Source: a virus (lineage: Duplodnaviria > Heunggongvirae > Uroviricota > Caudoviricetes). From it: 10,162 nucleotides of DNA. The stretch lies in IMG/VR virus record IMGVR_UViG_2537561712_000026; one strand, 5' to 3'. The notes below the pieces were generated by a model. The model ran no database searches. It had not been told where the DNA came from and saw only the letters and a list, made by a program, of their open reading frames with translations. Within the stretch, counting starts at the first letter, position 1; every line of letters starts with the position of its first letter. This document shows, one piece after another, positions 1,447 through 10,162 of this stretch. The translations under genes were made by a program, and so were the position numbers.

Positions 1447-1533
1447 GCTGAAAAACATAACCCATAAAATGCTAGCTGTACCAGGAACCACCTCCTTAGC
1501 CTGTGTAATCTCCCTTACACGGGCTTATTTTTT
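1447..1533 (+). ncRNA. cyaR: CyaR (RyeE) Hfq-dependent small RNA
   Basis: Sequence GCTGAAAAACATAACCCATAAAATGCTAGCTGTACCAGGAACCACCTCCTTAGCCTGTGTAATCTCCCTTACACGGGCTTATTTTTT matches my recollection of cyaR. It contains the CCTCCTTA seed-like motif and ends in a hairpin (CCTGTGTAA...TTACACGGG) followed by a T-run. It sits between yegQ and ogr as in K-12. Confidence 0.8.
1507..1533. other. P2-type attachment core (prophage/host junction, attL or attR)
   Basis: AATCTCCCTTACACGGGCTTATTTTTT is the reverse complement of the 27-bp P2 att core as I remember it (AAAAAATAAGCCCGTGTAAGGGAGATT). It lies exactly between host cyaR and phage ogr, which is where attP sits in P2 (ogr-attP-int). Confidence 0.65.
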
Positions 1534-1935: not shown

Positions 1936-3099
1936 TCATTCATCATCTTCTGTTTCGTATTCCACATCAGAAAGCCTGACCTCAAGCTCTAAGGACGTCG
2001 TGAAGCCGCTATTATTCAGAAAATGTGTCACCTTAGTGATGGTCCAGTCCTGCTCGTCTATGACGCGCTTAAAGCCTGACACTCTGACCGGTGTTTCCGT
2101 GTAAATATCTGCACGACCGGTAGCCAGGATGATGGAGAACTCCGCAACGCCCCGTTGCAGTTTGTCCCACTTCGCCTGAGCAGCACGCATGGCCTGTGCT
2201 TTCGTGGCATATACCGTGGTCAGGGCAAAAACGTTGTCAGCCTCACCGGCCATGTATTCACCTTCGCGCGCTTCCGGTACTTTTGGCGCTTTCTTCTGCC
2301 TGACCGGTTTCGCTTTCGGGTGCTCCAGTGCGCGCAGGTGTTTCTCTTTCTTTTTGCGTTTCAGTTTTACCTTCTGCTTTTGCGGTTTCGGGTCTTTGGT
2401 GTGTAACCACTTTGCCGTTACACCGGTATAGGCTCCACGGTCAGCAATCGCAAAATGATGGCGGTCGCCGTCGCTGCGGGTTATGGTGACCTGCGGGATT
2501 TTTTTACCGCTGGCCGTCACCCCCTGCCCCGCTTTGAGAAACAACAGTTTTCCCATTTTTACCGAGACCTCACCGCCGTTGCGTTCAGCAAGGCGGGTCA
2601 GGAATTTTGCATCAGACTCCTGCGACTGGTCGATGTGCGGGATTTTAATTCCGGCCAGTGACGGCGCGACACTGGCTTCCAGCCTGTTACGGGAGGCTAT
2701 TGCCTCAACAATCGCACCGAGCGTGGTGTCATGCCAGGAGTCTTCACGGCGGGAATTGAGCGTCCCGCGAAAATCTGCACTCCGGGCGCGGATGGTGACC
2801 ACATCCGGCGCGCCCCGGTGTTCAACCTCATCAACGGTAAATTTCCCTTTGCATACCAGGGCAAAACCTTTCCAGCCGATATACACCGTCAGGACAGCGC
2901 CACGAATCGGCAGCCCGACCTGCCCGTCGGCATCGTTCAGTTCAATATCAAGCTGGTCAGCCTCAAAGCCCCGGTTATCCGTCAGAGTCATGCTCATCAG
3001 ACGGTCGCTGATATTGCCGGTAATATCCCTGCTGTCGAGCATCAGCATGTAATCCGGCGTCAGCGTACTGCCTGCATCAAATGTCAGTGCATCCAGCAT
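1936..3099 (-). CDS. D: Tail/baseplate protein D (phage late control gene D family)
   Basis: 387 aa, the same length as P2 gpD. Position between U and ogr matches P2. Start ATG overlaps the U stop in a TAATG arrangement. Confidence 0.88.
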   Translation of the reverse strand: MLDALTFDAGSTLTPDYMLMLDSRDITGNISDRLMSMTLTDNRGFEADQLDIELNDADGQVGLPIRGAVLTVYIGWKGFALVCKGKFTVDEVEHRGAPDVVTIRARSADFRGTLNSRREDSWHDTTLGAIVEAIASRNRLEASVAPSLAGIKIPHIDQSQESDAKFLTRLAERNGGEVSVKMGKLLFLKAGQGVTASGKKIPQVTITRSDGDRHHFAIADRGAYTGVTAKWLHTKDPKPQKQKVKLKRKKKEKHLRALEHPKAKPVRQKKAPKVPEAREGEYMAGEADNVFALTTVYATKAQAMRAAQAKWDKLQRGVAEFSIILATGRADIYTETPVRVSGFKRVIDEQDWTITKVTHFLNNSGFTTSLELEVRLSDVEYETEDDE

Positions 3100-3578
3100 T
3101 ATCCCGCCCCCGTCATACCTGTGAATTTAGTCGCCATACTGCCAGCCTTACCGATGAGCGATTCCGCCTGTTTACCGATATCGCCATAAAGCGCGGCCAG
3201 TGGTTCGTCAACGCGGGTGAGCGACAGCGTAAAATCAATTTTTCGGGGTGTGCCGTCTGCAAAGAAAATACTCCCTGTTTCACTCACCCTGCTGATGACA
3301 TACATGCCGTAAATCATGCCGGTGCCATCCAGCAACGGCCACGCCCGACCTTCCTCTGCCATCAGCCTGAGCGTGGTCATCGTCAGCTTGCCGCCGGTCA
3401 GTTCGGGATAAAGCACACCGGCCAGCGTCATGTTTTCCTCGCCAACGCCGAGAAACTGGTAGGCATCCCGTTTACCGATACGGGAATTTGACGGCCAGCG
3501 ATAATCTGATTCACGCTGCATGGTCTGGTGTGGCAGCGTCTGGCGCATAAAAACAAACATACCTAACGCGAGCATCAT
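3099..3578 (-). CDS. U: Tail protein U
   Basis: 159 aa, the same length as P2 gpU, in synteny between T and D. Assigned by length and position rather than by direct sequence recognition. Confidence 0.8.
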   Translation of the reverse strand: MMLALGMFVFMRQTLPHQTMQRESDYRWPSNSRIGKRDAYQFLGVGEENMTLAGVLYPELTGGKLTMTTLRLMAEEGRAWPLLDGTGMIYGMYVISRVSETGSIFFADGTPRKIDFTLSLTRVDEPLAALYGDIGKQAESLIGKAGSMATKFTGMTGAG

Positions 3579-3592
3579 TTTTCGTCACCTCC

Positions 3593-6040
3593 TTAACCGT
3601 CATGCATCATGCTGGCACGGGCGCGCGCACGTTTATCCCGCTCGTATTTTTCGAGCGCATCCTGTAACTGGCGGTCAAGCTGTGTCCCCGGCGCAGTACC
3701 ACCCGTCAGGCTGATGTGATATTCGTTTTTACTCTGGTCCACATAAGAGCGGCCAGCCGGTGCCGTGACCGGCTGATAAGCCTGATAGCCTGCATAAGAG
3801 CTGGTCGCCGGAATATAACCACCGGTGCCATACGTGGCGGCATGAGTTCTGGCGGCGGTCTGGTCAAGTGTGTCTGACTCTTTGTTGATAACACCGAGTT
3901 TTTCCAGTACCCAGTCAATACCACTGCGCAGTTTGTTGAACGCATTAAGCGGCAGCATCAACGCGTCAGCCAGTGCCTGCCCGAACATGACGCCCGTGTC
4001 ACGGCAACGGTTCAGGGTGTCCTGGGTGGCTTTGACCGGGGCAATCAGTTTTTTAAACCACTGCCACGCGGCCTGTAACTTTTCACCCAGCCAGTCAAAC
4101 AGCGGCTTAAGTGGCGTGAACAGTTCCCCCACCGGCGCAAATGCAGCTTTCAGCCCTTCAACCACACCGCCAAAGAATGCGCTGACAGGCTCCCAGTATT
4201 TACGGATAAGCAACGCCCCGGCGACAATTGCAGCCACCACGGCCACAACCGGCCAGCTAATCGCCCCGATGGCCGTCATAACAGCACTGCCAACCGTCGT
4301 GAAGATTGCCCCCATTGCGCCTGCTGCCGCGATGATGGCATTAATGCCGGTGATAACCGGCCAGGCTACAAGACCAATTGCACCGATGATGCCAATAAGC
4401 GCCAGTGCGCCACCGACAATAAGGCCGATGGTTGACGCCAGTGATTTGTTTTTCTGGATCCAGCCGTCGAGTTTTAACACATACTTTGTGGCCGTCTGCG
4501 TGAGATTACGCAGTGCGCCTTCCTGTTGGTCAAACAGGTCAGTCCCCACCGCCTCATAAGCGGACTGAAACTCCTTAAAGTCACCGCCGAGGTTGTCCTG
4601 CATGATATTTACCAGCTCTGCGGTCTTCCCGTCTGAGGCTTTAAACGCAGCGGTCAGTTTGTCCAGCTTTCCGGTTGAGGCGGCAGTCATCAGCACGGCG
4701 GCGGCTGAACTGGCCTCCTCCCCGAAAATGGTTTTCATGTATTCAGCCTGCTGGGCAGTACCGAGCCGGTTTTTCTCAAAACTGGCCTGCATTTCTTTCA
4801 GAATGGTAAATATTGGTCGGGTATTCCCCTTGCTGTCTGAGGTTTTCACTCCAAGCTCTTTGAGTGCATCCCATGCTTTTCCCGTCGGTGCCTGCAGGCG
4901 ACTTAACACGGCACGGCTTCCCGTCCCCGCCATTGAGCCTGTGATTTTTGCATCATGCAGCGCCCCGACCATTGCGGCGGTTTCTTCAATGCTGACACCG
5001 GCATTTTTTGCCACAGGTGCGGCATAGGTCAGCGCATCGCTCATACCGTCAAAATCGGCGGCGGTTTTGTTCATCGTCATGGAGAGAACATCCCCGATAT
5101 GAGCAACCTTATCGTTTGAAAGCTGAAAGGCAGATTTCATCCCCATCAGCAGGGCGGCGTTTTCTTCCATCGTGCGACGGTTCGCCAGCGCCATATTCAG
5201 CGTGACCGGCGTTGCCGCCTGAATGGCATCAACATCCCCACCCGCTTTCGCGATGATAATCTGTGCACCGGCCGCATCATCCGCCGAGGCGGCGGTATTG
5301 TCGCCGAGCTGGCGCGCCTGCTTGCGTAGCGCGGCCATTTCGGCGGAGTCTTTTGCCACACCGAGCACGGCCTGTAATTCTGAGTTTTTCTGCGCAAATT
5401 CATAACCGGGCATCAGCAGCTTAACACCGGCCATCGTTCCCGCCGCCGCAATCCCCACACCGGCAGCGCCCACTGAGGCCATATTTCCGGCCAGCTCCTT
5501 TCCTGCCTGATAGCGCTGTTTTACTGCGTTAAGTTTTGCCTGTTGCGCACTGACACGCGCCAGCGCGTCACGCTGCCGGTTAAGCTGTGCGGTGGTTTCA
5601 CTGATACGGTTTTTCAGCCCCAGCTCATCATGTGCAAGATTGCGGGTATTAATTCCCACAGCGGCCAGTTCCCGCTGCTGGCGTTTAACGGAATCCGTCA
5701 GGCGGTTATATTTCGCCTGTAAGTCCTCCGCCGCACGCTTTGCGGATTCCAGCACTTTCGCCTGAGCACGGGTCGGACGTTCGGTGTTTTTAAACTGTGT
5801 GGCAAGGGCTTCGGCCTCCTGCCGTGCCTTTTCAAGTGCATGACCAGTCACGGCGAGCTGTGCGCTGGTCTTGCGGAATCCCTCAATACGGGATGCCTGC
5901 CCGTTCAGCTCGCGCAGTGATTTTTGTGTTTCCCGGATATCCCCCGACAGCGACTTACTCGCTGTGCGGATGGATTTAAACGGGCGGGATGCCTGGTCAA
6001 CAGCCCTGAGCAATACCTGTAATTTTACATTGTTACTCAT
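3593..6040 (-). CDS. T: Tail tape measure protein T
   Basis: 815 aa (P2 gpT length). Coiled-coil-rich N-terminal half, a Gly/Ala/Ile-rich hydrophobic central segment, and the expected position downstream of E/E'. Confidence 0.9.
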   Translation of the reverse strand: MSNNVKLQVLLRAVDQASRPFKSIRTASKSLSGDIRETQKSLRELNGQASRIEGFRKTSAQLAVTGHALEKARQEAEALATQFKNTERPTRAQAKVLESAKRAAEDLQAKYNRLTDSVKRQQRELAAVGINTRNLAHDELGLKNRISETTAQLNRQRDALARVSAQQAKLNAVKQRYQAGKELAGNMASVGAAGVGIAAAGTMAGVKLLMPGYEFAQKNSELQAVLGVAKDSAEMAALRKQARQLGDNTAASADDAAGAQIIIAKAGGDVDAIQAATPVTLNMALANRRTMEENAALLMGMKSAFQLSNDKVAHIGDVLSMTMNKTAADFDGMSDALTYAAPVAKNAGVSIEETAAMVGALHDAKITGSMAGTGSRAVLSRLQAPTGKAWDALKELGVKTSDSKGNTRPIFTILKEMQASFEKNRLGTAQQAEYMKTIFGEEASSAAAVLMTAASTGKLDKLTAAFKASDGKTAELVNIMQDNLGGDFKEFQSAYEAVGTDLFDQQEGALRNLTQTATKYVLKLDGWIQKNKSLASTIGLIVGGALALIGIIGAIGLVAWPVITGINAIIAAAGAMGAIFTTVGSAVMTAIGAISWPVVAVVAAIVAGALLIRKYWEPVSAFFGGVVEGLKAAFAPVGELFTPLKPLFDWLGEKLQAAWQWFKKLIAPVKATQDTLNRCRDTGVMFGQALADALMLPLNAFNKLRSGIDWVLEKLGVINKESDTLDQTAARTHAATYGTGGYIPATSSYAGYQAYQPVTAPAGRSYVDQSKNEYHISLTGGTAPGTQLDRQLQDALEKYERDKRARARASMMHDG

Positions 6041-6206
6041 TCGTGTTTCCGCTTCGCCTGAGCGCCTTTTCGCGCCATGTGATGAGTTCGGTCAGGCTCA
6101 TGGGATACAGTTCTGATGGCGGCCAGTGAAATACCACTGCCACATCCGCCATCAGGTCATCGACCGAGAGATTTTTCGGAAACGTCACTGCACCGAGTTC
6201 GGCGAC
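6033..6206 (-). CDS. E': E' extension of the tail assembly chaperone, reached by programmed -1 frameshift from E (E+E' fusion 142 aa)
   Basis: Slippery heptamer TTTTTTG on the minus strand (plus 6206..6212) lies 6 codons before the E stop. Reading on in the -1 frame gives 57 more residues (VAELGAVTFPKNLSVDDLMADVAVVFHWPPSELYPMSLTELITWREKALRRSGNTNE) and stops at TAA 6033..6035, overlapping the T start (ATGAGTAA). 85 + 57 = 142 aa, the P2 E+E' length. Confidence 0.8.
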   Translation of the reverse strand, partial: VAELGAVTFPKNLSVDDLMADVAVVFHWPPSELYPMSLTELITWREKALRRSGNTNE

Positions 6207-6460
6207 AAAAAACCGACCACCTTACCGGCCAGCGCCACAAGGTCAGGCAGTTCCAGCGCGGCGACCTCCTGTTCGGTCAGCATCGGTGCCGTCATGCGCG
6301 GCAGCACTTTAATCAGTGCATCGACTTCGGAGTTCGCGACCGCAGCCAGACTGACACCGCGCAGCGTCCCGGCATTGGGTTTCATCAGCGTGACCTGTTC
6401 GATAACCTGCTCACCACGCTTGACCGGATTGTCCAGGGTAATCACATTTTCTTTGTTCAT
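6185..6460 (-). CDS. E: Tail assembly chaperone E
   Basis: 91 aa, MNKENVITLDNPVKRGEQ...; length and sequence recognised as P2 gpE; located between FII and T. Confidence 0.88.
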   Translation of the reverse strand: MNKENVITLDNPVKRGEQVIEQVTLMKPNAGTLRGVSLAAVANSEVDALIKVLPRMTAPMLTEQEVAALELPDLVALAGKVVGFLSPNSVQ

Positions 6461-6516: not shown

Positions 6517-7035
6517 TCACAGGCCGATATTGCGGCGGTGTTGCTCCAGCCGGTCGACGCCGTTCACCTTCTCAATCATGTTGATGGTGTCGATTTCGAC
6601 CAGCTCCTTACCGTCCATCGTCAGCCGGAAATAGGTGCAGACCACGGAGATTTTCGACTCGGTGTCTTCTCCCTGTTTACCCTCGCCGGTGTCGATTTCT
6701 TTCTGACGGCCACGCATGACCACCTCGACGGCCACCGTTTCGCCGGTATCGTCGCGCTGGTAAGAGCCTGCAAAACGAATCGGTACGGCATCCACACCGG
6801 TTGCGGCGTAAAGCTCCCAGATAACCGAATCCGGGAAGCCACCGAGCGACCACTCCATTGACAGCGCATCGTCATCAAGGCCGAGGTCTACCGGTGCGCT
6901 GCCATTCATCCCCGCACCGCGATAGTTTTCGAGCTTACGGGTCAGTTTTGGCAGCGTGACGGACTTCGCGACGCCCTGATAGCTGTAGCCGTTCAGAAAG
7001 ACGTTCATTAACTTGAGTTTGCGCGGCATTGCCAT
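6517..7035 (-). CDS. FII: Major tail tube protein FII
   Basis: 172 aa (P2 gpFII length); sequence recognised; AAGGAG Shine-Dalgarno upstream; follows FI with a 12-bp gap. Confidence 0.9.
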   Translation of the reverse strand: MAMPRKLKLMNVFLNGYSYQGVAKSVTLPKLTRKLENYRGAGMNGSAPVDLGLDDDALSMEWSLGGFPDSVIWELYAATGVDAVPIRFAGSYQRDDTGETVAVEVVMRGRQKEIDTGEGKQGEDTESKISVVCTYFRLTMDGKELVEIDTINMIEKVNGVDRLEQHRRNIGL

Positions 7036-7047
7036 CGGTCAGGCTCC

Positions 7048-8238
7048 TTAATTGCTGTTAACCGAGGTGACCAGATTTGCCAGGTATTTATCGGTGATAC
7101 GCTGGCGCAGGGTCAGGTTTTCAAGAGGAGGTACCGGTGTATAGTCGTAGTCGATATACAGTTTTCCGGCCTTGAGGGTTTCCGCATCGCTGGATTCTTC
7201 GCTGAACCAGCAGGTCGCATCCACGATATAGCCGTTTGTTTTCAGCTCACGGAATTTGGCATTGATGCCGTCAACGATGTCGCGAATCAGCGTTGCGGTG
7301 ATGGGCTTGTCCACCGCCCACATGTGCGCCTCAGCCATCGTGTCGGCCAGCACCTGCGCGGTGCGGGTGTAGTTTTCAAAGAGGAACAGCGGGTCATCAG
7401 AGCAGGTACGGTTACCCCAGAAGCGGAAACCGTCGCGGCGAATCAGCGTAGTGACGCCTGACTCGTTAAGCAGGTCAGCATCGGTGCCGGACTCCTGCAA
7501 ATCCCAGAATACAGATGCGCTGATGCCGTTAACACCGTTTACCCCGACGTTGGACAGCGTTTTATGCCAGCCCTGCTCCTGGTCGATTTTAGCGCGCAGA
7601 CCCAGCGCACGGGCGGTGGCATACGCGGTGGCGGTGGTGCTGCTGACCGTATCCCATGCGAGGAAATCCGGCCAGATGACCATCAGCTCACGCTGGCTGA
7701 AATTCTGGCGGTAGGCTTTCACCTCGGAAATGGTTTTACAGCCCCATGCGCTGATATACCCGAAAGCGCGCAGCTTCTGACAGACTGATGCCAGTGCAAC
7801 AGCCACCTCTTTGGTGTCCAGTCCCGGCACGCCGAGAATACGCGGTTTAACACCGGTTACCGACTCTGCCGCCAGCAGGGCTTTCAGTCCGGTATACTGA
7901 CCGTTTTCGTCAGTGGTGCCGATGATATTGGAAACGGTCTGCGCGAGTTTCGTTTCTTCGTCGTCGCCGGTGCCGTCTTCAACACGCACGACAACGGTAA
8001 CCGGTTTTGACTGGTCAGCGATGGCCTGCAACGATGCCGCCAGCGTGCCTTTTTTACCGGCCTTTGCAATTGCGCTCTGCACATTGGTAATCAGCACAGG
8101 TTTATTGAGGGGGAAGGTTTCCGCATCCGCATCGCTGGCCGTGCAGACCATGCCGACAATGGCGGTGGATACGGTGGAAATGACGCGGGTGCCGTCGTTA
8201 ATCTCCAGCACCTGCACGCCGTGATGATAATCACTCAT
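7048..8238 (-). CDS. FI: Contractile tail sheath protein FI
   Basis: 396 aa (P2 gpFI length); sequence recognised as P2-type tail sheath; first gene of the FI-FII-E-T-U-D operon. Confidence 0.9.
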   Translation of the reverse strand: MSDYHHGVQVLEINDGTRVISTVSTAIVGMVCTASDADAETFPLNKPVLITNVQSAIAKAGKKGTLAASLQAIADQSKPVTVVVRVEDGTGDDEETKLAQTVSNIIGTTDENGQYTGLKALLAAESVTGVKPRILGVPGLDTKEVAVALASVCQKLRAFGYISAWGCKTISEVKAYRQNFSQRELMVIWPDFLAWDTVSSTTATAYATARALGLRAKIDQEQGWHKTLSNVGVNGVNGISASVFWDLQESGTDADLLNESGVTTLIRRDGFRFWGNRTCSDDPLFLFENYTRTAQVLADTMAEAHMWAVDKPITATLIRDIVDGINAKFRELKTNGYIVDATCWFSEESSDAETLKAGKLYIDYDYTPVPPLENLTLRQRITDKYLANLVTSVNSN

Positions 8239-8335
8239 CCGTTTAACTCCGTGGTTAATGGGTGAGTGATATTTTCAGTTGTGCCGGAGATGTCAGGCTA
8301 TTTGTCCCGGTTGGCTAAGGGATGACACAATTTAT
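8239..8335 (-). promoter_or_regulatory. Expected Ogr-dependent late promoter region for the FI operon (element not resolved)
   Basis: Position only: P2 late promoter P_F lies immediately upstream of FI. I could find only imperfect TGT-N12-ACA-like dyads here (for example TGT-N12-CCA on the minus strand around 8311..8329). The region overlaps the 3' end of the invertase gene. Confidence 0.3.
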
Positions 8336-8891
8336 TCTTTGTCGCTGATGAGGGGAATTTTTTATAGAGCGTGGACAGGCCAATATCAAAAATCAGCGCC
8401 ACACGTTGACGAGATTCCCCCGCAGCCAGCAACCGTCCGACCTGCTCCCACTCACTCGTGGTGAGTTTCGGTCGTCTGCCACCAATACGACCTTTGGCTC
8501 TGGCCGCTTCCAGTCCGGCGCGTGTCCGCTCGACAATGAGTTCTCGCTCCATTTCTGCCAGGGCCCCCATCACATGAAAGAAAAAGCGCCCCATCGGCGT
8601 GCTGGTATCAATAGCATCCGTCAGGCTGCGAAAATTAACGCCGCGTTCGCGCAGTTCCTCAACCAGAATGACCAGATGCCGCATACTACGCCCCAGCCTA
8701 TCCAGCTTCCAGACTACCAGAGTGTCACCTGCTGATAATGTTCTGAGCAGTTTTTTCAGTCCCGGTCGGTCGGACTTCGTGCCGCTGATTTTATCCTCAA
8801 AAATCAGCTCACATCCTGCACACTCCAGCGCATTACGCTGCAATTCCGTGTTCTGGTCATTTGTTGACACGCGTACATAGCCAATAAGCAT
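8298..8891 (-). CDS. Serine DNA invertase, Hin/Gin/Cin/Pin family
   Basis: Translation MLIGYVRVSTNDQNTELQRNAL...VVWKLDRLGRSMRHL...MGRFFFHVMGALAEMERELIVERTRAGL...GRIGGRRPKLT...STLYKK closely resembles E. coli Pin and Mu Gin, with the catalytic Ser in YVRVSTNDQ and a C-terminal helix-turn-helix. Start chosen at the ATG at 8891 (197 aa); ATG 8897 is an alternative. The ORF track's 265-aa version (to 9095) has a 66-residue N-terminal extension I consider non-coding. Confidence 0.85.
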   Translation of the reverse strand: MLIGYVRVSTNDQNTELQRNALECAGCELIFEDKISGTKSDRPGLKKLLRTLSAGDTLVVWKLDRLGRSMRHLVILVEELRERGVNFRSLTDAIDTSTPMGRFFFHVMGALAEMERELIVERTRAGLEAARAKGRIGGRRPKLTTSEWEQVGRLLAAGESRQRVALIFDIGLSTLYKKFPSSATKNKLCHPLANRDK

Positions 8892-8946
8892 GAGCATCTC
8901 CCTGAATAAAAACCGGAGATGATGCCAGTTACCCGTTATTTCTGCA

Positions 8947-8972
8947 TTTTCATAAACGTTGGTTTGGGAGAA
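8947..8972. other. Candidate 26-bp inversion crossover site (hix/gix/cix-like), left border of the invertible segment
   Basis: TTTTCATAAACG-TT-GGTTTGGGAGAA has the 12-2-12 architecture and the AAACC/GGTTT-type inner half-site motifs of hixL and gixL as I recall them (TTCTTGAAAACC-AA-GGTTTTTGATAA, TTCCTGTAAACC-GA-GGTTTTGGATAA). It lies 56 bp upstream of the invertase start and inside the open tail-fibre frame. Confidence 0.5.
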
Positions 8973-9445
8973 GCGGCAAAACGGGATGTGGGGACAGGGG
9001 AAAATCAGCCACTCCGCCGACAGGCTGGCTGAAATGCAACGGGGCGGCTTTTTCTGCTGAAGAATACCCGGAACTGGCAAAGGTTTACCCGACAAATAAA
9101 TTGCCTGATTTACGTGGTGAGTTTATTCGTGGCTGGGATGACGGACGTGGAGTGGATAACGGAAGGGGATTATTGACGCTTCAGGACGGTGCGATTGTCA
9201 GTCATAACCACTATTGGGGAATCTGGACTTCACGAACTAACGACCAGACTCTGGAAAGTTTTACAGGCACCACGATTTTAAAACAAATCACGCCCCTGTC
9301 TCCGGCCATTAACTTCGATAATTACCCAATTCCCAACCCGGCTATTACAGAGGGTGGTGTTGTTGCGGCAACGACTAAACCTGCAGGTGCGAATGAAACA
9401 CGCCCACGAAATGTCGCTTTTAACTATATTGTGAGGGCTGCATAA
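8960..9445 (+). CDS. Tail-fibre C-terminal variable (receptor-binding) cassette; no start codon or promoter in this orientation
   Basis: The frame is open from 8906 to the TAA at 9443..9445 with no in-frame ATG (the track starts it at a TTG at 9101). It encodes ...GWLKCNGAAFSAEEYPELAKVYPTNKLPDLRGEFIRGWDDGRG...RPRNVAFNYIVRAA, resembling the C-terminal region of P2 H and Mu S (AYPKLAVAYP...LPDMRG...NIAFNYIVRLA). It begins at the candidate crossover site. Confidence 0.6.
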   Translation, partial: WFGRSGKTGCGDRGKSATPPTGWLKCNGAAFSAEEYPELAKVYPTNKLPDLRGEFIRGWDDGRGVDNGRGLLTLQDGAIVSHNHYWGIWTSRTNDQTLESFTGTTILKQITPLSPAINFDNYPIPNPAITEGGVVAATTKPAGANETRPRNVAFNYIVRAA

Positions 9446-10047
9446 TGAATAACGCAGAATTAAACAGTGAATTAATTGCCACTATGGCAGGAGAAATTAC
9501 TGTTTATAACTTTGATGTCATGAGTCGGGAATATATTTCAGCTTCAACTGAATATCTTGCTATTGGTGTCGGCATTCCGGCATATTCCTGTTTAGATGCC
9601 CCAGGCGCATACAAAGCTGGTTATGCAATCTGCCGTTCTGCAGATTTTAACTCATGGGAATATGTGCCAGACCATCGCGGTGAAATCGTCTTTAGCACCG
9701 AAACAGGAGAATCAAAAGAAATCACCGCTCCGGGTGATTACCCTGATAATACAACCACTATCGCCCCGTTAACGCCATACGATAAATGGGATGGTGAGAA
9801 ATGGGTGACGGATACCGAAGCACAGCATAGCGCCGCAGTAGAAGCGGCAGAAACACAACGCCAGTCGCTGATTGATACTGCAATGGCTTCCATTAGTCTG
9901 ATTCAGCTGAAATTACAGGCCGGACGGAAGCTGACGCAGGCAGAAACCAACCGACTTAACACGGTGCTGGATTACATTGACGCGGTGACGGCAACAGATA
10001 CCAGCACCGCGCCGGATGTCATCTGGCCTGAACTGCCGGAGGCGTAG
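9445..10047 (+). CDS. Tail-fibre assembly (chaperone) protein, Tfa / P2 G / Mu U family
   Basis: 200 aa. ATG overlaps the upstream TAA (TAATG coupling). C-terminus ...LDYIDAVTATDTSTAPDVIWPELP has the conserved Tfa C-terminal motif. Confidence 0.8.
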   Translation: MNNAELNSELIATMAGEITVYNFDVMSREYISASTEYLAIGVGIPAYSCLDAPGAYKAGYAICRSADFNSWEYVPDHRGEIVFSTETGESKEITAPGDYPDNTTTIAPLTPYDKWDGEKWVTDTEAQHSAAVEAAETQRQSLIDTAMASISLIQLKLQAGRKLTQAETNRLNTVLDYIDAVTATDTSTAPDVIWPELPEA

Positions 10048-10162
10048 GCCATTCAATATCTGGCGCACTGGCGGTATCGACCAGCTCCAGTGCGTCCAGA
10101 TAATCCAGCCACAAATTATATTGTGCCAGTTCCTCACCTTTCAGATGGTAATGGATGGATGA
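10019..10162 (-). CDS. Second tail-fibre assembly protein, C-terminal 47 codons only (5' end beyond window)
   Basis: Minus-strand frame reads ...HYHLKGEELAQYNLWLDYLDALELVDTASAPDIEWPTPPAVQAR with stop at 10019..10021. This is the same conserved Tfa C-terminal motif, convergent with and overlapping the plus-strand tfa by 29 bp. It is absent from the ORF track because no start codon lies inside the window. Confidence 0.65.
   Translation of the reverse strand, partial: SSIHYHLKGEELAQYNLWLDYLDALELVDTASAPDIEWPTPPAVQAR

What the first reader, a model, noticed from the sequence alone, without database searches (positions are those of the whole stretch)
6033..6460. Conserved programmed -1 ribosomal frameshift producing E+E' (slippery site TTTTTTG)
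On the minus strand the heptamer TTTTTTG (plus 6206..6212) lies 6 codons before the E stop. A -1 slip yields a 57-residue extension that ends at a TAA embedded in the T start (ATGAGTAA), giving exactly the 142-aa fusion known for P2. This is the conserved G/GT-type tail chaperone recoding and should be annotated as a joined CDS, which automated callers usually miss.
Basis: partly seen in the sequence, partly recalled or inferred. Interest (0 to 1): 0.45.

Follow-up and report, generated by a model that had tools for sequence, protein, structure and literature searches.

The report
Known P2 tail-chaperone frameshift site
This is the well-known programmed -1 ribosomal frameshift that makes the tail-assembly protein E+E' of phage P2, present here in a P2-type prophage of E. 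coli; it is real and conserved but already described, and the only practical point is that genome annotation pipelines split it into two genes.

Summary
On the minus strand, gene E (6460..6185, 91 aa) contains T_TTT_TTG at 6212..6206, in the X_XXY_YYZ register, six sense codons before its TGA. The -1 frame is open for 57 codons and ends at TAA 6035..6033, inside the ATGAGTAA that starts the tape-measure gene T.

The 142-aa fusion is 140/142 identical to P2 E+E' (NP_046780.1 / O64312). My P2 reconstruction with the GFL|VAELG junction matches that record exactly. The 91 nt around the heptamer are identical to P2, where this frameshift was shown experimentally (Christie 2002, read only through citing papers).

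Conservation supports the reading:
- 79 of 80 species-level genome loci have E' in the -1 frame with an in-register TTTTTTN.
- 11 of 14 window and phage sequences have TTTTTTG; the other three use different in-register heptamers.
- The GTG start that PGAP gives E' is present in 1 of 87 distinct sequences.

PGAP annotates two separate CDSs here, so the annotation point holds.

[quoted passage not shown] It is conserved, frozen at synonymous sites, and may be an unreported stimulator of this weak heptamer. Verdict: already known, low interest.

The parts
6185..6460 (-). Gene E (gpE, 91 aa), the zero-frame tail assembly chaperone
   Evidence: ORF, translation. Matches Pfam PF10109 Phage_TAC_7 at E = 3.8e-12. 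PGAP names it 'phage tail assembly protein'.
6206..6212 (-). Slippery heptamer T_TTT_TTG. The zero-frame codons are GGT TTT TTG
   Evidence: It is the only in-register X_XXY_YYZ heptamer in the 37-nt overlap. An in-register TTTTTTN is present in 79 of 80 genome loci, and TTTTTTG in 11 of 14 window/phage sequences.
6033..6206 (-). E' segment: 57 codons plus TAA in the -1 frame, read after the slip
   Evidence: Translation. Matches Pfam PF06528 Phage_P2_GpE at E = 5.8e-22.
6033..6460 (-). Joined CDS E+E' = complement(join(6033..6206,6206..6460)), 142 aa
   Evidence: 140/142 identical to P2 NP_046780.1. The DNA is 99% identical to P2 over 456 nt.
6217..6223 (-). Shine-Dalgarno-like AAGGTGG. [quoted passage not shown] Candidate 5' stimulator (inferred, not shown)
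   Evidence: Strongest anti-SD duplex in the E gene, -12.2 kcal/mol. Across 87 distinct sequences the mean is -10.8 against a background of -2.2 +/- 1.7. The Lys codon is AAG 71: AAA 1, whereas other Lys columns are about 2:1 in favour of AAA. 80 of 87 sequences meet the published SD-stimulator rule against 13% at other positions.
6033..6040 (-). ATGAGTAA: the start codon of T (6040..6038) overlapping the stop codon of E+E' (6035..6033)
   Evidence: The same arrangement is found in P2 and in most relatives.
3593..6040 (-). Gene T, tail tape measure protein (815 aa), the presumed client of the chaperones
   Evidence: Pfam PF10145 at E = 2.4e-45. PGAP annotation.
6517..7035 (-). Gene FII, tail tube protein (172 aa), the upstream neighbour
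   Evidence: Pfam PF04985 at E = 2.3e-60.

Best explanation
The window carries the late tail operon of a P2-type (Peduovirus) prophage inserted next to yegQ in E. coli. The gene order on the minus strand is FI-FII-E/E'-T-U-D-ogr.

Most ribosomes translating E stop at TGA 6187..6185 and make the 91-aa gpE. A minority slip back one nucleotide on T_TTT_TTG (6212..6206). In that slip, tRNA-Phe on UUU in the P site and tRNA-Leu on UUG in the A site re-pair with UUU and UUU. These ribosomes then read 57 more codons in the -1 frame and make the 142-aa gpE+E', ending at a TAA that overlaps the ATG of the tape-measure gene T.

By analogy with lambda gpG/gpGT, the shared E part would bind the tape measure. 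The E' part, made at a fixed lower ratio, would recruit the tail tube, and neither protein would end up in the virion.

Basis of each step:
- Shown here: the sequence anatomy, the homology and the conservation.
- Taken from the literature: that the shift occurs, that it is essential, and that its efficiency is a few-fold above lambda's. This was shown in P2, whose 91 nt around the site are identical to the window.
- Inferred: the chaperone mechanism, and a stimulatory role for the conserved Shine-Dalgarno-like AAGGTG just upstream.
For: Anatomy:
- The fusion is 140/142 identical to P2 E+E'. The P2 reconstruction equals NP_046780.1/O64312 exactly.
- The P2 record annotates a joined CDS and a -1 frameshift site.
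- The 91-nt context is identical to P2, and the region is 99% identical over 456 nt.
- Pfam PF10109 matches the zero-frame part and PF06528 the -1 part.
- FI, FII, T, U, D and ogr are all full length and in P2 order.

Conservation:
- E' is in the -1 frame in all 14 window and phage sequences. TTTTTTG is in register in 11 of them. The other three have different in-register heptamers (GGGAAAG, AAATTTT, CCCTTTC), two of them at the homologous Phe codon.
- 79 of 80 genome loci from different species have the -1 arrangement plus TTTTTTN, across 75 distinct nucleotide contexts.
- The codons GGT TTT TTG show essentially no synonymous variation.

Literature:
- P2 makes the 91-aa E and the 142-aa E+E' by a -1 shift at TTTTTTG (PMC3091744).
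- Efficiency is 2- to 3-fold above lambda G-T (PMC5009743).
Against: - No protein or ribosome data exist for this particular prophage.
- The primary paper (Christie et al. 2002) could not be opened, so the experimental facts come through citing papers and my own memory of its abstract.
- U_UUU_UUG is a weak -1 motif in E. coli reporters: 0.12% without a stimulator, 0.25% with the IS911 stimulator and 0.77% with the IS3 stimulator (PMC4066793 Table S3). No conserved 3' structure was found. How the site reaches a useful efficiency is therefore not fully explained.
- The identity of the junction residue (Leu if two tRNAs slip together, Phe if only the P-site tRNA slips) is not established by anything I could access.
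Confidence: 0.95

Rival explanations
1. E' is a separate small gene. A 51-aa protein would be initiated at GTG 6188 with no frameshift, which is the gene model PGAP uses.
For: PGAP annotates 6033..6188 as 'GpE family phage tail protein'. That 51-aa product is on record from about 1000 contigs. The ORF listing gives a GTG-started ORF there.
Against: The codon at that position is GTG in only 1 of 87 distinct relatives; elsewhere it is GTA, CTG, TTA and others. In most relatives the first possible start in the E' frame is 18 codons in. By contrast the in-register heptamer is nearly universal. The literature says E' lacks a ribosome binding site and that the fusion was verified in P2 (PMC3931495; PMC3091744).
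Confidence: 0.02
2. The -1 frame is reached by transcriptional slippage. RNA polymerase would add an extra U in the T6 run, and ordinary translation of the T7 mRNA would give ...GFF|VAELG....
For: The site is a homopolymer run. Some relatives have T7G or T7C (PMC3931495). One E. coli genome record carries a 142-aa in-frame GFFVAELG protein, QTN08932.1, which shows that T7 variants arise.
Against: From general knowledge, six T's are shorter than the runs that give efficient polymerase slippage. The run is always in the X_XXY_YYZ register. Three divergent relatives use in-register heptamers with no long homopolymer: AAATTTT, CCCTTTC and GGGAAAG. A Shine-Dalgarno-like element at a set distance fits a ribosomal mechanism.
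Confidence: 0.02
3. The site is a relic. The prophage would be defective and the E/E' signal no longer used, so the feature has no present function in this genome.
For: Only the tail end of the prophage is visible in the window. One tail-fibre-region ORF next to the invertase is out of frame relative to EC4115.
Against: All seven tail-operon genes have exactly the P2 lengths with no stops. In the 456 nt aligned around E/E', 11 bases differ from P2, and only two of these change an amino acid of the fusion. The att core and ogr are intact.
Confidence: 0.05

Closest known systems
Phage P2 genes E and E+E' (NP_046781.1 / NP_046780.1, UniProt O64312 TAPFS_BPP2)
   Same: Same gene, heptamer, register, 37-nt overlap, 142-aa product and stop overlapping the T start. 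The 91 nt around the site are identical, and the protein is 140/142 identical.
   Different: Two conservative substitutions (S29N, I110V). Here the locus is a chromosomal prophage next to yegQ, with an invertase and tail-fibre module in place of P2 fun(Z) upstream of FI.
Phage 186 gene H (orf51/orf52) and E/E' pairs of other Peduoviridae (phiCTX, Burkholderia KS5/KS14/KL3, Ralstonia and Acidovorax phages)
   Same: Two frames offset by -1, in-register TTTTTTG, and a Shine-Dalgarno-like sequence just upstream (PMC3091744).
   Different: Protein identity is 37-79%. N-terminal extensions vary, the distance from the heptamer to the E stop is 6-22 codons, and the overlap is 37-427 nt.
Lambda gpG / gpGT tail assembly chaperones
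   Same: Position between the major tail gene and the tape-measure gene. [quoted passage not shown]
   Different: At E <= 0.01 only PF10109 and PF06528 matched, so no other Pfam family was detected. The heptamer differs. P2 is a contractile-tail phage, and its efficiency is reported as 2- to 3-fold higher.
E. coli dnaX and IS911/IS3 -1 frameshift signals
   Same: X_XXY_YYZ heptamer with an upstream Shine-Dalgarno-like sequence of a class (AGGKG) and spacing (6-17 nt) reported as stimulatory (PMC4066793).
   Different: Those signals also have a 3' hairpin or pseudoknot. None is supported here. The spacing here is at the short end of the range.

Membership tests
P2-type E / E+E' recoded tail assembly gene pair (Peduoviridae) | Upstream ORF homologous to gpE | tested here: met
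   PF10109 at E = 3.8e-12 over residues 7-85. The E part of the fusion (residues 1-85) differs from P2 at one residue, S29N.
P2-type E / E+E' recoded tail assembly gene pair (Peduoviridae) | Overlapping ORF in the -1 frame homologous to E' | tested here: met
   PF06528 at E = 5.8e-22 over residues 104-139 of the fusion. The frame offset is -1.
P2-type E / E+E' recoded tail assembly gene pair (Peduoviridae) | In-register slippery heptamer T_TTT_TTG inside the overlap, near the 3' end of E | tested here: met
   6212..6206, six codons before the stop. It is the only in-register heptamer in the 37-nt overlap.
P2-type E / E+E' recoded tail assembly gene pair (Peduoviridae) | Location between tail tube gene FII and tape-measure gene T, with the E' stop overlapping the T start | tested here: met
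   ATGAGTAA lies at 6040..6033.
P2-type E / E+E' recoded tail assembly gene pair (Peduoviridae) | Fusion protein actually produced by ribosomal slippage and required for tail assembly | not testable with these tools
   Reported for P2 by Christie et al. 2002, as cited in PMC3091744, PMC3931495 and PMC5009743. The primary paper is not held.
Lambda G/GT-type tail assembly chaperones (functional class) | Two overlapping ORFs between the major tail or tube gene and the tape-measure gene, joined by a programmed frameshift | tested here: met
Lambda G/GT-type tail assembly chaperones (functional class) | Sequence homology to lambda gpG/gpT | tested here: not met
   The Pfam scan at E <= 0.01 returned only PF10109 and PF06528. 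From my own recollection, the primary literature describes the P2 and lambda proteins as lacking sequence similarity. The locus therefore works like G/GT but is not a member by sequence.
Lambda G/GT-type tail assembly chaperones (functional class) | Binding to the tape measure and tube proteins; absence from the virion | not testable with these tools
   Described for lambda in PMC5009743. No solved structure of a relative was found.
Shine-Dalgarno-stimulated -1 frameshift signals (dnaX / IS911 type) | [quoted passage not shown] | tested here: met
   AGGTG ends 6 nt before the second base. 80 of 87 distinct relatives meet the rule against 13.4% at other codon positions. The rule is taken from PMC4066793.
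Shine-Dalgarno-stimulated -1 frameshift signals (dnaX / IS911 type) | Conserved 3' hairpin or pseudoknot 5-9 nt after the motif | tested here: not met
   The 60 nt downstream give z = -0.01. The RNAalifold consensus is only -3.9 kcal/mol. A local CCG/CGG hairpin has no covariation, and 460-491 of 500 shuffles do as well.
Shine-Dalgarno-stimulated -1 frameshift signals (dnaX / IS911 type) | Loss of frameshifting when the SD-like sequence is mutated | not testable with these tools
   Needs a reporter assay.

The most novel reading that the evidence does not exclude
[quoted passage not shown] It would raise an intrinsically weak U_UUU_UUG motif (0.1-0.8% in E. coli reporters) to the several-per-cent level reported for P2, without any 3' RNA structure. 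I found no mention of it in the papers I could read, but I could not open Christie 2002 or Xu 2004, so it may already have been noted.
Probability: 0.4. Interest if true: 0.35.

Novelty: already known. Interest (0 to 1): 0.12.

Why it matters
As biology it adds nothing new. The E/E+E' frameshift of P2 has been known since 2002 and belongs to the widely conserved G/GT-type recoding of tailed phages.

Its practical value is for annotation. In RefSeq E. coli genomes this locus is split into a 91-aa gene and an artificial 51-aa gene started at a non-conserved GTG. The real 142-aa product is therefore missing from protein databases for this allele.

The side observation has modest mechanistic interest. 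A positionally fixed, synonymously constrained anti-SD-complementary element sits next to a weak heptamer. It offers a cheap, direct test of how this family of sites reaches its efficiency without a downstream structure.

Tried and rejected
1. 3' stimulatory structure.
- The 60 nt after the heptamer fold no better than shuffles (z = -0.01).
- The 100-nt fold has z = -2.86, but this comes from a hairpin that starts about 50 nt downstream, which is too far away.
- RNAalifold on 87 sequences gives only -3.9 kcal/mol, with G-U-rich pairs to the conserved GATGACCTGATGGC and little covariation (3 of 12 pairs, in one or two of the 87 sequences each).
- A tempting local hairpin, CCG-NNTT-CGG, right after the heptamer has no covariation and does no better than column shuffles. 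It is explained by dual coding.

2. Independent initiation of E' at the PGAP GTG. Rejected, because that start codon is present in 1 of 87 relatives.

3. Heptamer frequency as evidence. Rejected, because TTTTTTG occurs at the chance rate in the window.

4. Solved structures. No relative was found by sequence.

5. Primary paper. It was not obtainable by DOI or PMC id, so the experimental claims rest on citing papers.

6. The 32-nt patch next to the invertase site. I checked whether it is a local inversion or has a partner inside the window, and found none. There is no exact copy in viral contigs.
Full report
**What is in the sequence**

On the minus strand the ORF 6460..6185 encodes 91 aa ending ...AGKVVGFLSPNSVQ*. 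Its last codons read GTC GGT TTT TTG TCG CCG AAC TCG GTG CAG TGA. TTTTTTG therefore sits at 6212..6206 in the register T_TTT_TTG, with six sense codons before the stop.

Re-reading the G at 6206 in the -1 frame gives VAELGAVTFPKNLSVDDLMADVAVVFHWPPSELYPMSLTELITWREKALRRSGNTNE*. That is 57 residues. The TAA is at 6035..6033, inside ATGAGTAA, whose ATG (6040..6038) starts the 815-aa ORF 3593..6040. The fusion is 142 aa.

The heptamer alone is not statistically remarkable: there are 3 copies in the window against 2.5 expected. The two reading frames overlap by only 37 nt, and this is the only in-register X_XXY_YYZ heptamer inside that overlap.

**What the locus is**

The 701 nt around the site match 82 phage records, almost all Peduovirus or P2-like, at 95-99% identity. 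The whole window matches E. coli chromosomes, best O157:H7, at 99.8%.

Pfam and the PGAP annotation of NC_011353 give the following map.

| Feature | Window coordinates | Strand |
|---|---|---|
| yegQ | 1-1362 | + |
| ogr | 1636-1854 | - |
| D | 1936-3099 | - |
| U | 3099-3578 | - |
| T, tape measure | 3593-6040 | - |
| E' and E | 6033-6460 | - |
| FII, tail tube | 6517-7035 | - |
| FI, tail sheath | 7048-8238 | - |
| serine invertase and tail-fibre genes | from 8298 | mixed |

All the tail genes have exactly the lengths of their P2 counterparts. This is the FI-FII-E-E'-T-U-D-ogr late operon of a P2-type prophage.

**Comparison with P2**

The reference P2 record annotates E (276 nt), a two-piece joined CDS 'E+E'' noted as 'shares amino terminus with gpE; -1 frameshift', and a 'site of -1 translational frameshift'.

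The window and P2 are 99% identical over 456 nt. The 91 nt from -28 to +56 around the heptamer are identical. My conceptual fusions differ at two residues, S29N and I110V.

An exact-sequence look-up shows that the P2 fusion built with the junction GFL|VAELG is AAD03292.1 / NP_046780.1 / UniProt O64312, 'Tail assembly protein E''. The fusion has PF10109 (Phage_TAC_7) at residues 7-85 and PF06528 (Phage_P2_GpE) at residues 104-139.

**Conservation**

A tblastn search of the fusion against 50,697 phage records finds 418 records. In 401 of them, one place covers at least 80% of the query, and nearly every listed hit is in two pieces, i.e. in two frames.

I examined 14 sequences: the window, P2 and 12 further phages. 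They span 37-79% protein identity and hosts from Escherichia to Burkholderia, Ralstonia, Pseudomonas, Acidovorax and Mannheimia.
- E' is in the -1 frame in all 14.
- TTTTTTG is in register in 11 of them.
- The remaining three have other in-register heptamers: GGGAAAG, AAATTTT and CCCTTTC.
- In the protein alignment, two of those three lie at the homologous Phe codon.

A scan of one genome per bacterial species returned at least 588 relatives. Of the best 80 loci, 79 have the -1 arrangement and an in-register TTTTTTN (75 G, 3 A, 1 C), in 75 distinct nucleotide contexts.

Across 89 distinct sequences, the codons GGT TTT TTG show essentially no synonymous variation, while neighbouring codons vary freely.

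The single exception, L016 from a Symbiopectobacterium, has an 11-nt deletion just upstream of the T-run that puts E and E' in one frame.

**Rivals**

PGAP models E' as a separate 51-aa gene starting at GTG 6188. That GTG is present in 1 of 87 distinct relatives. In most relatives the first possible start codon is 18 codons into the E' frame. Papers summarising the P2 work state that E' has no ribosome binding site, that it extends 37 nt back into E, and that E (91 aa) and E+E' (142 aa) come from one start through a -1 shift at TTTTTTG (PMC3931495; PMC3091744).

Transcriptional slippage is unlikely. The run is short and always in register, and relatives without a homopolymer keep an in-register heptamer.

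**How it most likely works**

A tandem -1 slip would move tRNA-Phe and tRNA-Leu from UUU-UUG to U-UUU-UU, and reading would then continue in the E' frame. This step is inferred from the heptamer rule.

By analogy with lambda gpG/gpGT (PMC5009743), the common E part would bind the tape measure gpT. The E' domain, made in a fixed minority of molecules, would recruit the tube protein FII. This is inferred, not tested here. The same review says the efficiency in P2 and its relatives is 2- to 3-fold above lambda's.

**Stimulators**

I found no support for a 3' structure.
- The 60 nt downstream fold like shuffled sequence.
- The consensus fold of 87 sequences is -3.9 kcal/mol.
- A local CCG/CGG hairpin has no covariation.

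This agrees with the statement in PMC3091744 that P2 and its Burkholderia relatives lack such hairpins.

On the 5' side there is a clear signal.
- AAGGTGG at 6223..6217 forms the strongest duplex with the 16S 3' tail anywhere in E, at -12.2 kcal/mol.
- Over 87 distinct sequences, the mean duplex energy at offset -10 from the heptamer is -10.8 kcal/mol, against -2.2 +/- 1.7 for all other offsets.
- The Lys codon in it is AAG 71: AAA 1, whereas three other conserved Lys columns of the same genes are 23-34 AAG to 38-54 AAA. The Val codon is GTG in 78 of 87.
- All 11 TTTTTTG-bearing window and phage sequences have the element. The three phages with other heptamers do not.
[quoted passage not shown] 80 of 87 sequences meet the rule, against 13.4% at other codon positions.
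- The same paper measured U_UUU_UUG at only 0.12%, 0.25% and 0.77% frameshifting with no stimulator, the IS911 stimulator and the IS3 stimulator respectively. A context stimulator is therefore needed to explain the efficiency reported for P2.

This is a hypothesis, not a result. The spacing is at the short end of the range. I could not check whether the primary P2 papers already discussed the element.

**Annotation point**

In NC_011353, PGAP gives two CDSs here. Most of the phage records I opened also split the pair or omit E'. Only P2 and Carl1 carry a joined CDS, and phage 186 carries a note.

For this allele, the 91-aa E and the 51-aa 'GpE family' product are each on record from about 1000 or more contigs. 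The 142-aa fusion is not in a collection of about 15 billion proteins. PMC10885494 describes the same general problem for tail-chaperone frameshifts.

**Verdict**

The feature is the already known P2 E/E+E' programmed frameshift, in a near-identical prophage copy. Interest is low. Two items have some value: the annotation correction, complement(join(6033..6206,6206..6460)), and the testable idea that a conserved upstream Shine-Dalgarno-like element stimulates the shift.

Noticed in passing
window 6217-6223 (minus strand), just 5' of the heptamer: [quoted passage not shown] It is the strongest anti-SD match in gene E and is positionally conserved in 87 distinct relatives. Its synonymous sites are frozen (Lys AAG 71:1). 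It is absent from the three relatives that use other heptamers. It may be the stimulator of an intrinsically weak U_UUU_UUG motif.
   Followed up: partly
window ~1507-1533 (minus strand), between yegQ and ogr: The P2 attP core AAAAAATAAGCCCGTGTAAGGGAGATT is present. Homology to P2 (ogr end, terminator, Int P arm, IHF site) stops exactly after it. This is the prophage-host junction, about 145 nt past the yegQ stop. The ogr terminator has T7 where P2 has T6.
   Followed up: partly
window 8298-10162: Where P2 carries fun(Z), this prophage has a serine invertase (Resolvase + HTH_7, 8298-8891 minus strand). Next to it are a Cin/Gin/Pin-like crossover-type sequence (about 8950-8975) and opposed tail-fibre and tail-fibre-assembly genes. 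This looks like an invertible host-range segment.
   Followed up: partly
window 8974-9005: A stretch of about 32 nt right after the putative crossover site differs from EC4115 and is 7 nt shorter. No complete E. coli genome of 5,426 searched matches it; the best full-length matches are about 81-82% identical. It does match, at 94-96%, sequence next to similar sites in other phages (OR845587, ON470579). It puts the ORF that PGAP calls 'phage tail protein' in EC4115 out of frame. The origin is unexplained: it may be mosaic recombination or a recombination product at the site.
   Followed up: partly
L016 (Candidatus Symbiopectobacterium, NZ_PEHF01000066.1) 586-1020: An 11-nt deletion just upstream of the T-run removes the SD-like element and fuses E and E' into a single in-frame 139-aa ORF. 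Only the long form could then be made. This is probably a decaying prophage in a symbiont genome.
   Followed up: no
protein QTN08932.1 (E. coli chromosome), found by exact look-up: A 142-aa annotated protein with the junction GFFVAELG. This is what a T7 run (one extra T) would encode, giving an in-frame E-E' fusion. It is either a real mutation or a homopolymer sequencing error.
   Followed up: no
window 6106-6155 (minus strand): A stable hairpin, CUGAUGGCGG...CCGCCAUCAG, lies about 50-93 nt downstream of the heptamer and gives z = -2.86 for the 100-nt fold. It is too far away to be a classical stimulator, and it sits in the most conserved part of E' (DDLMAD...HWPPSE). It was not analysed further.
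   Followed up: no
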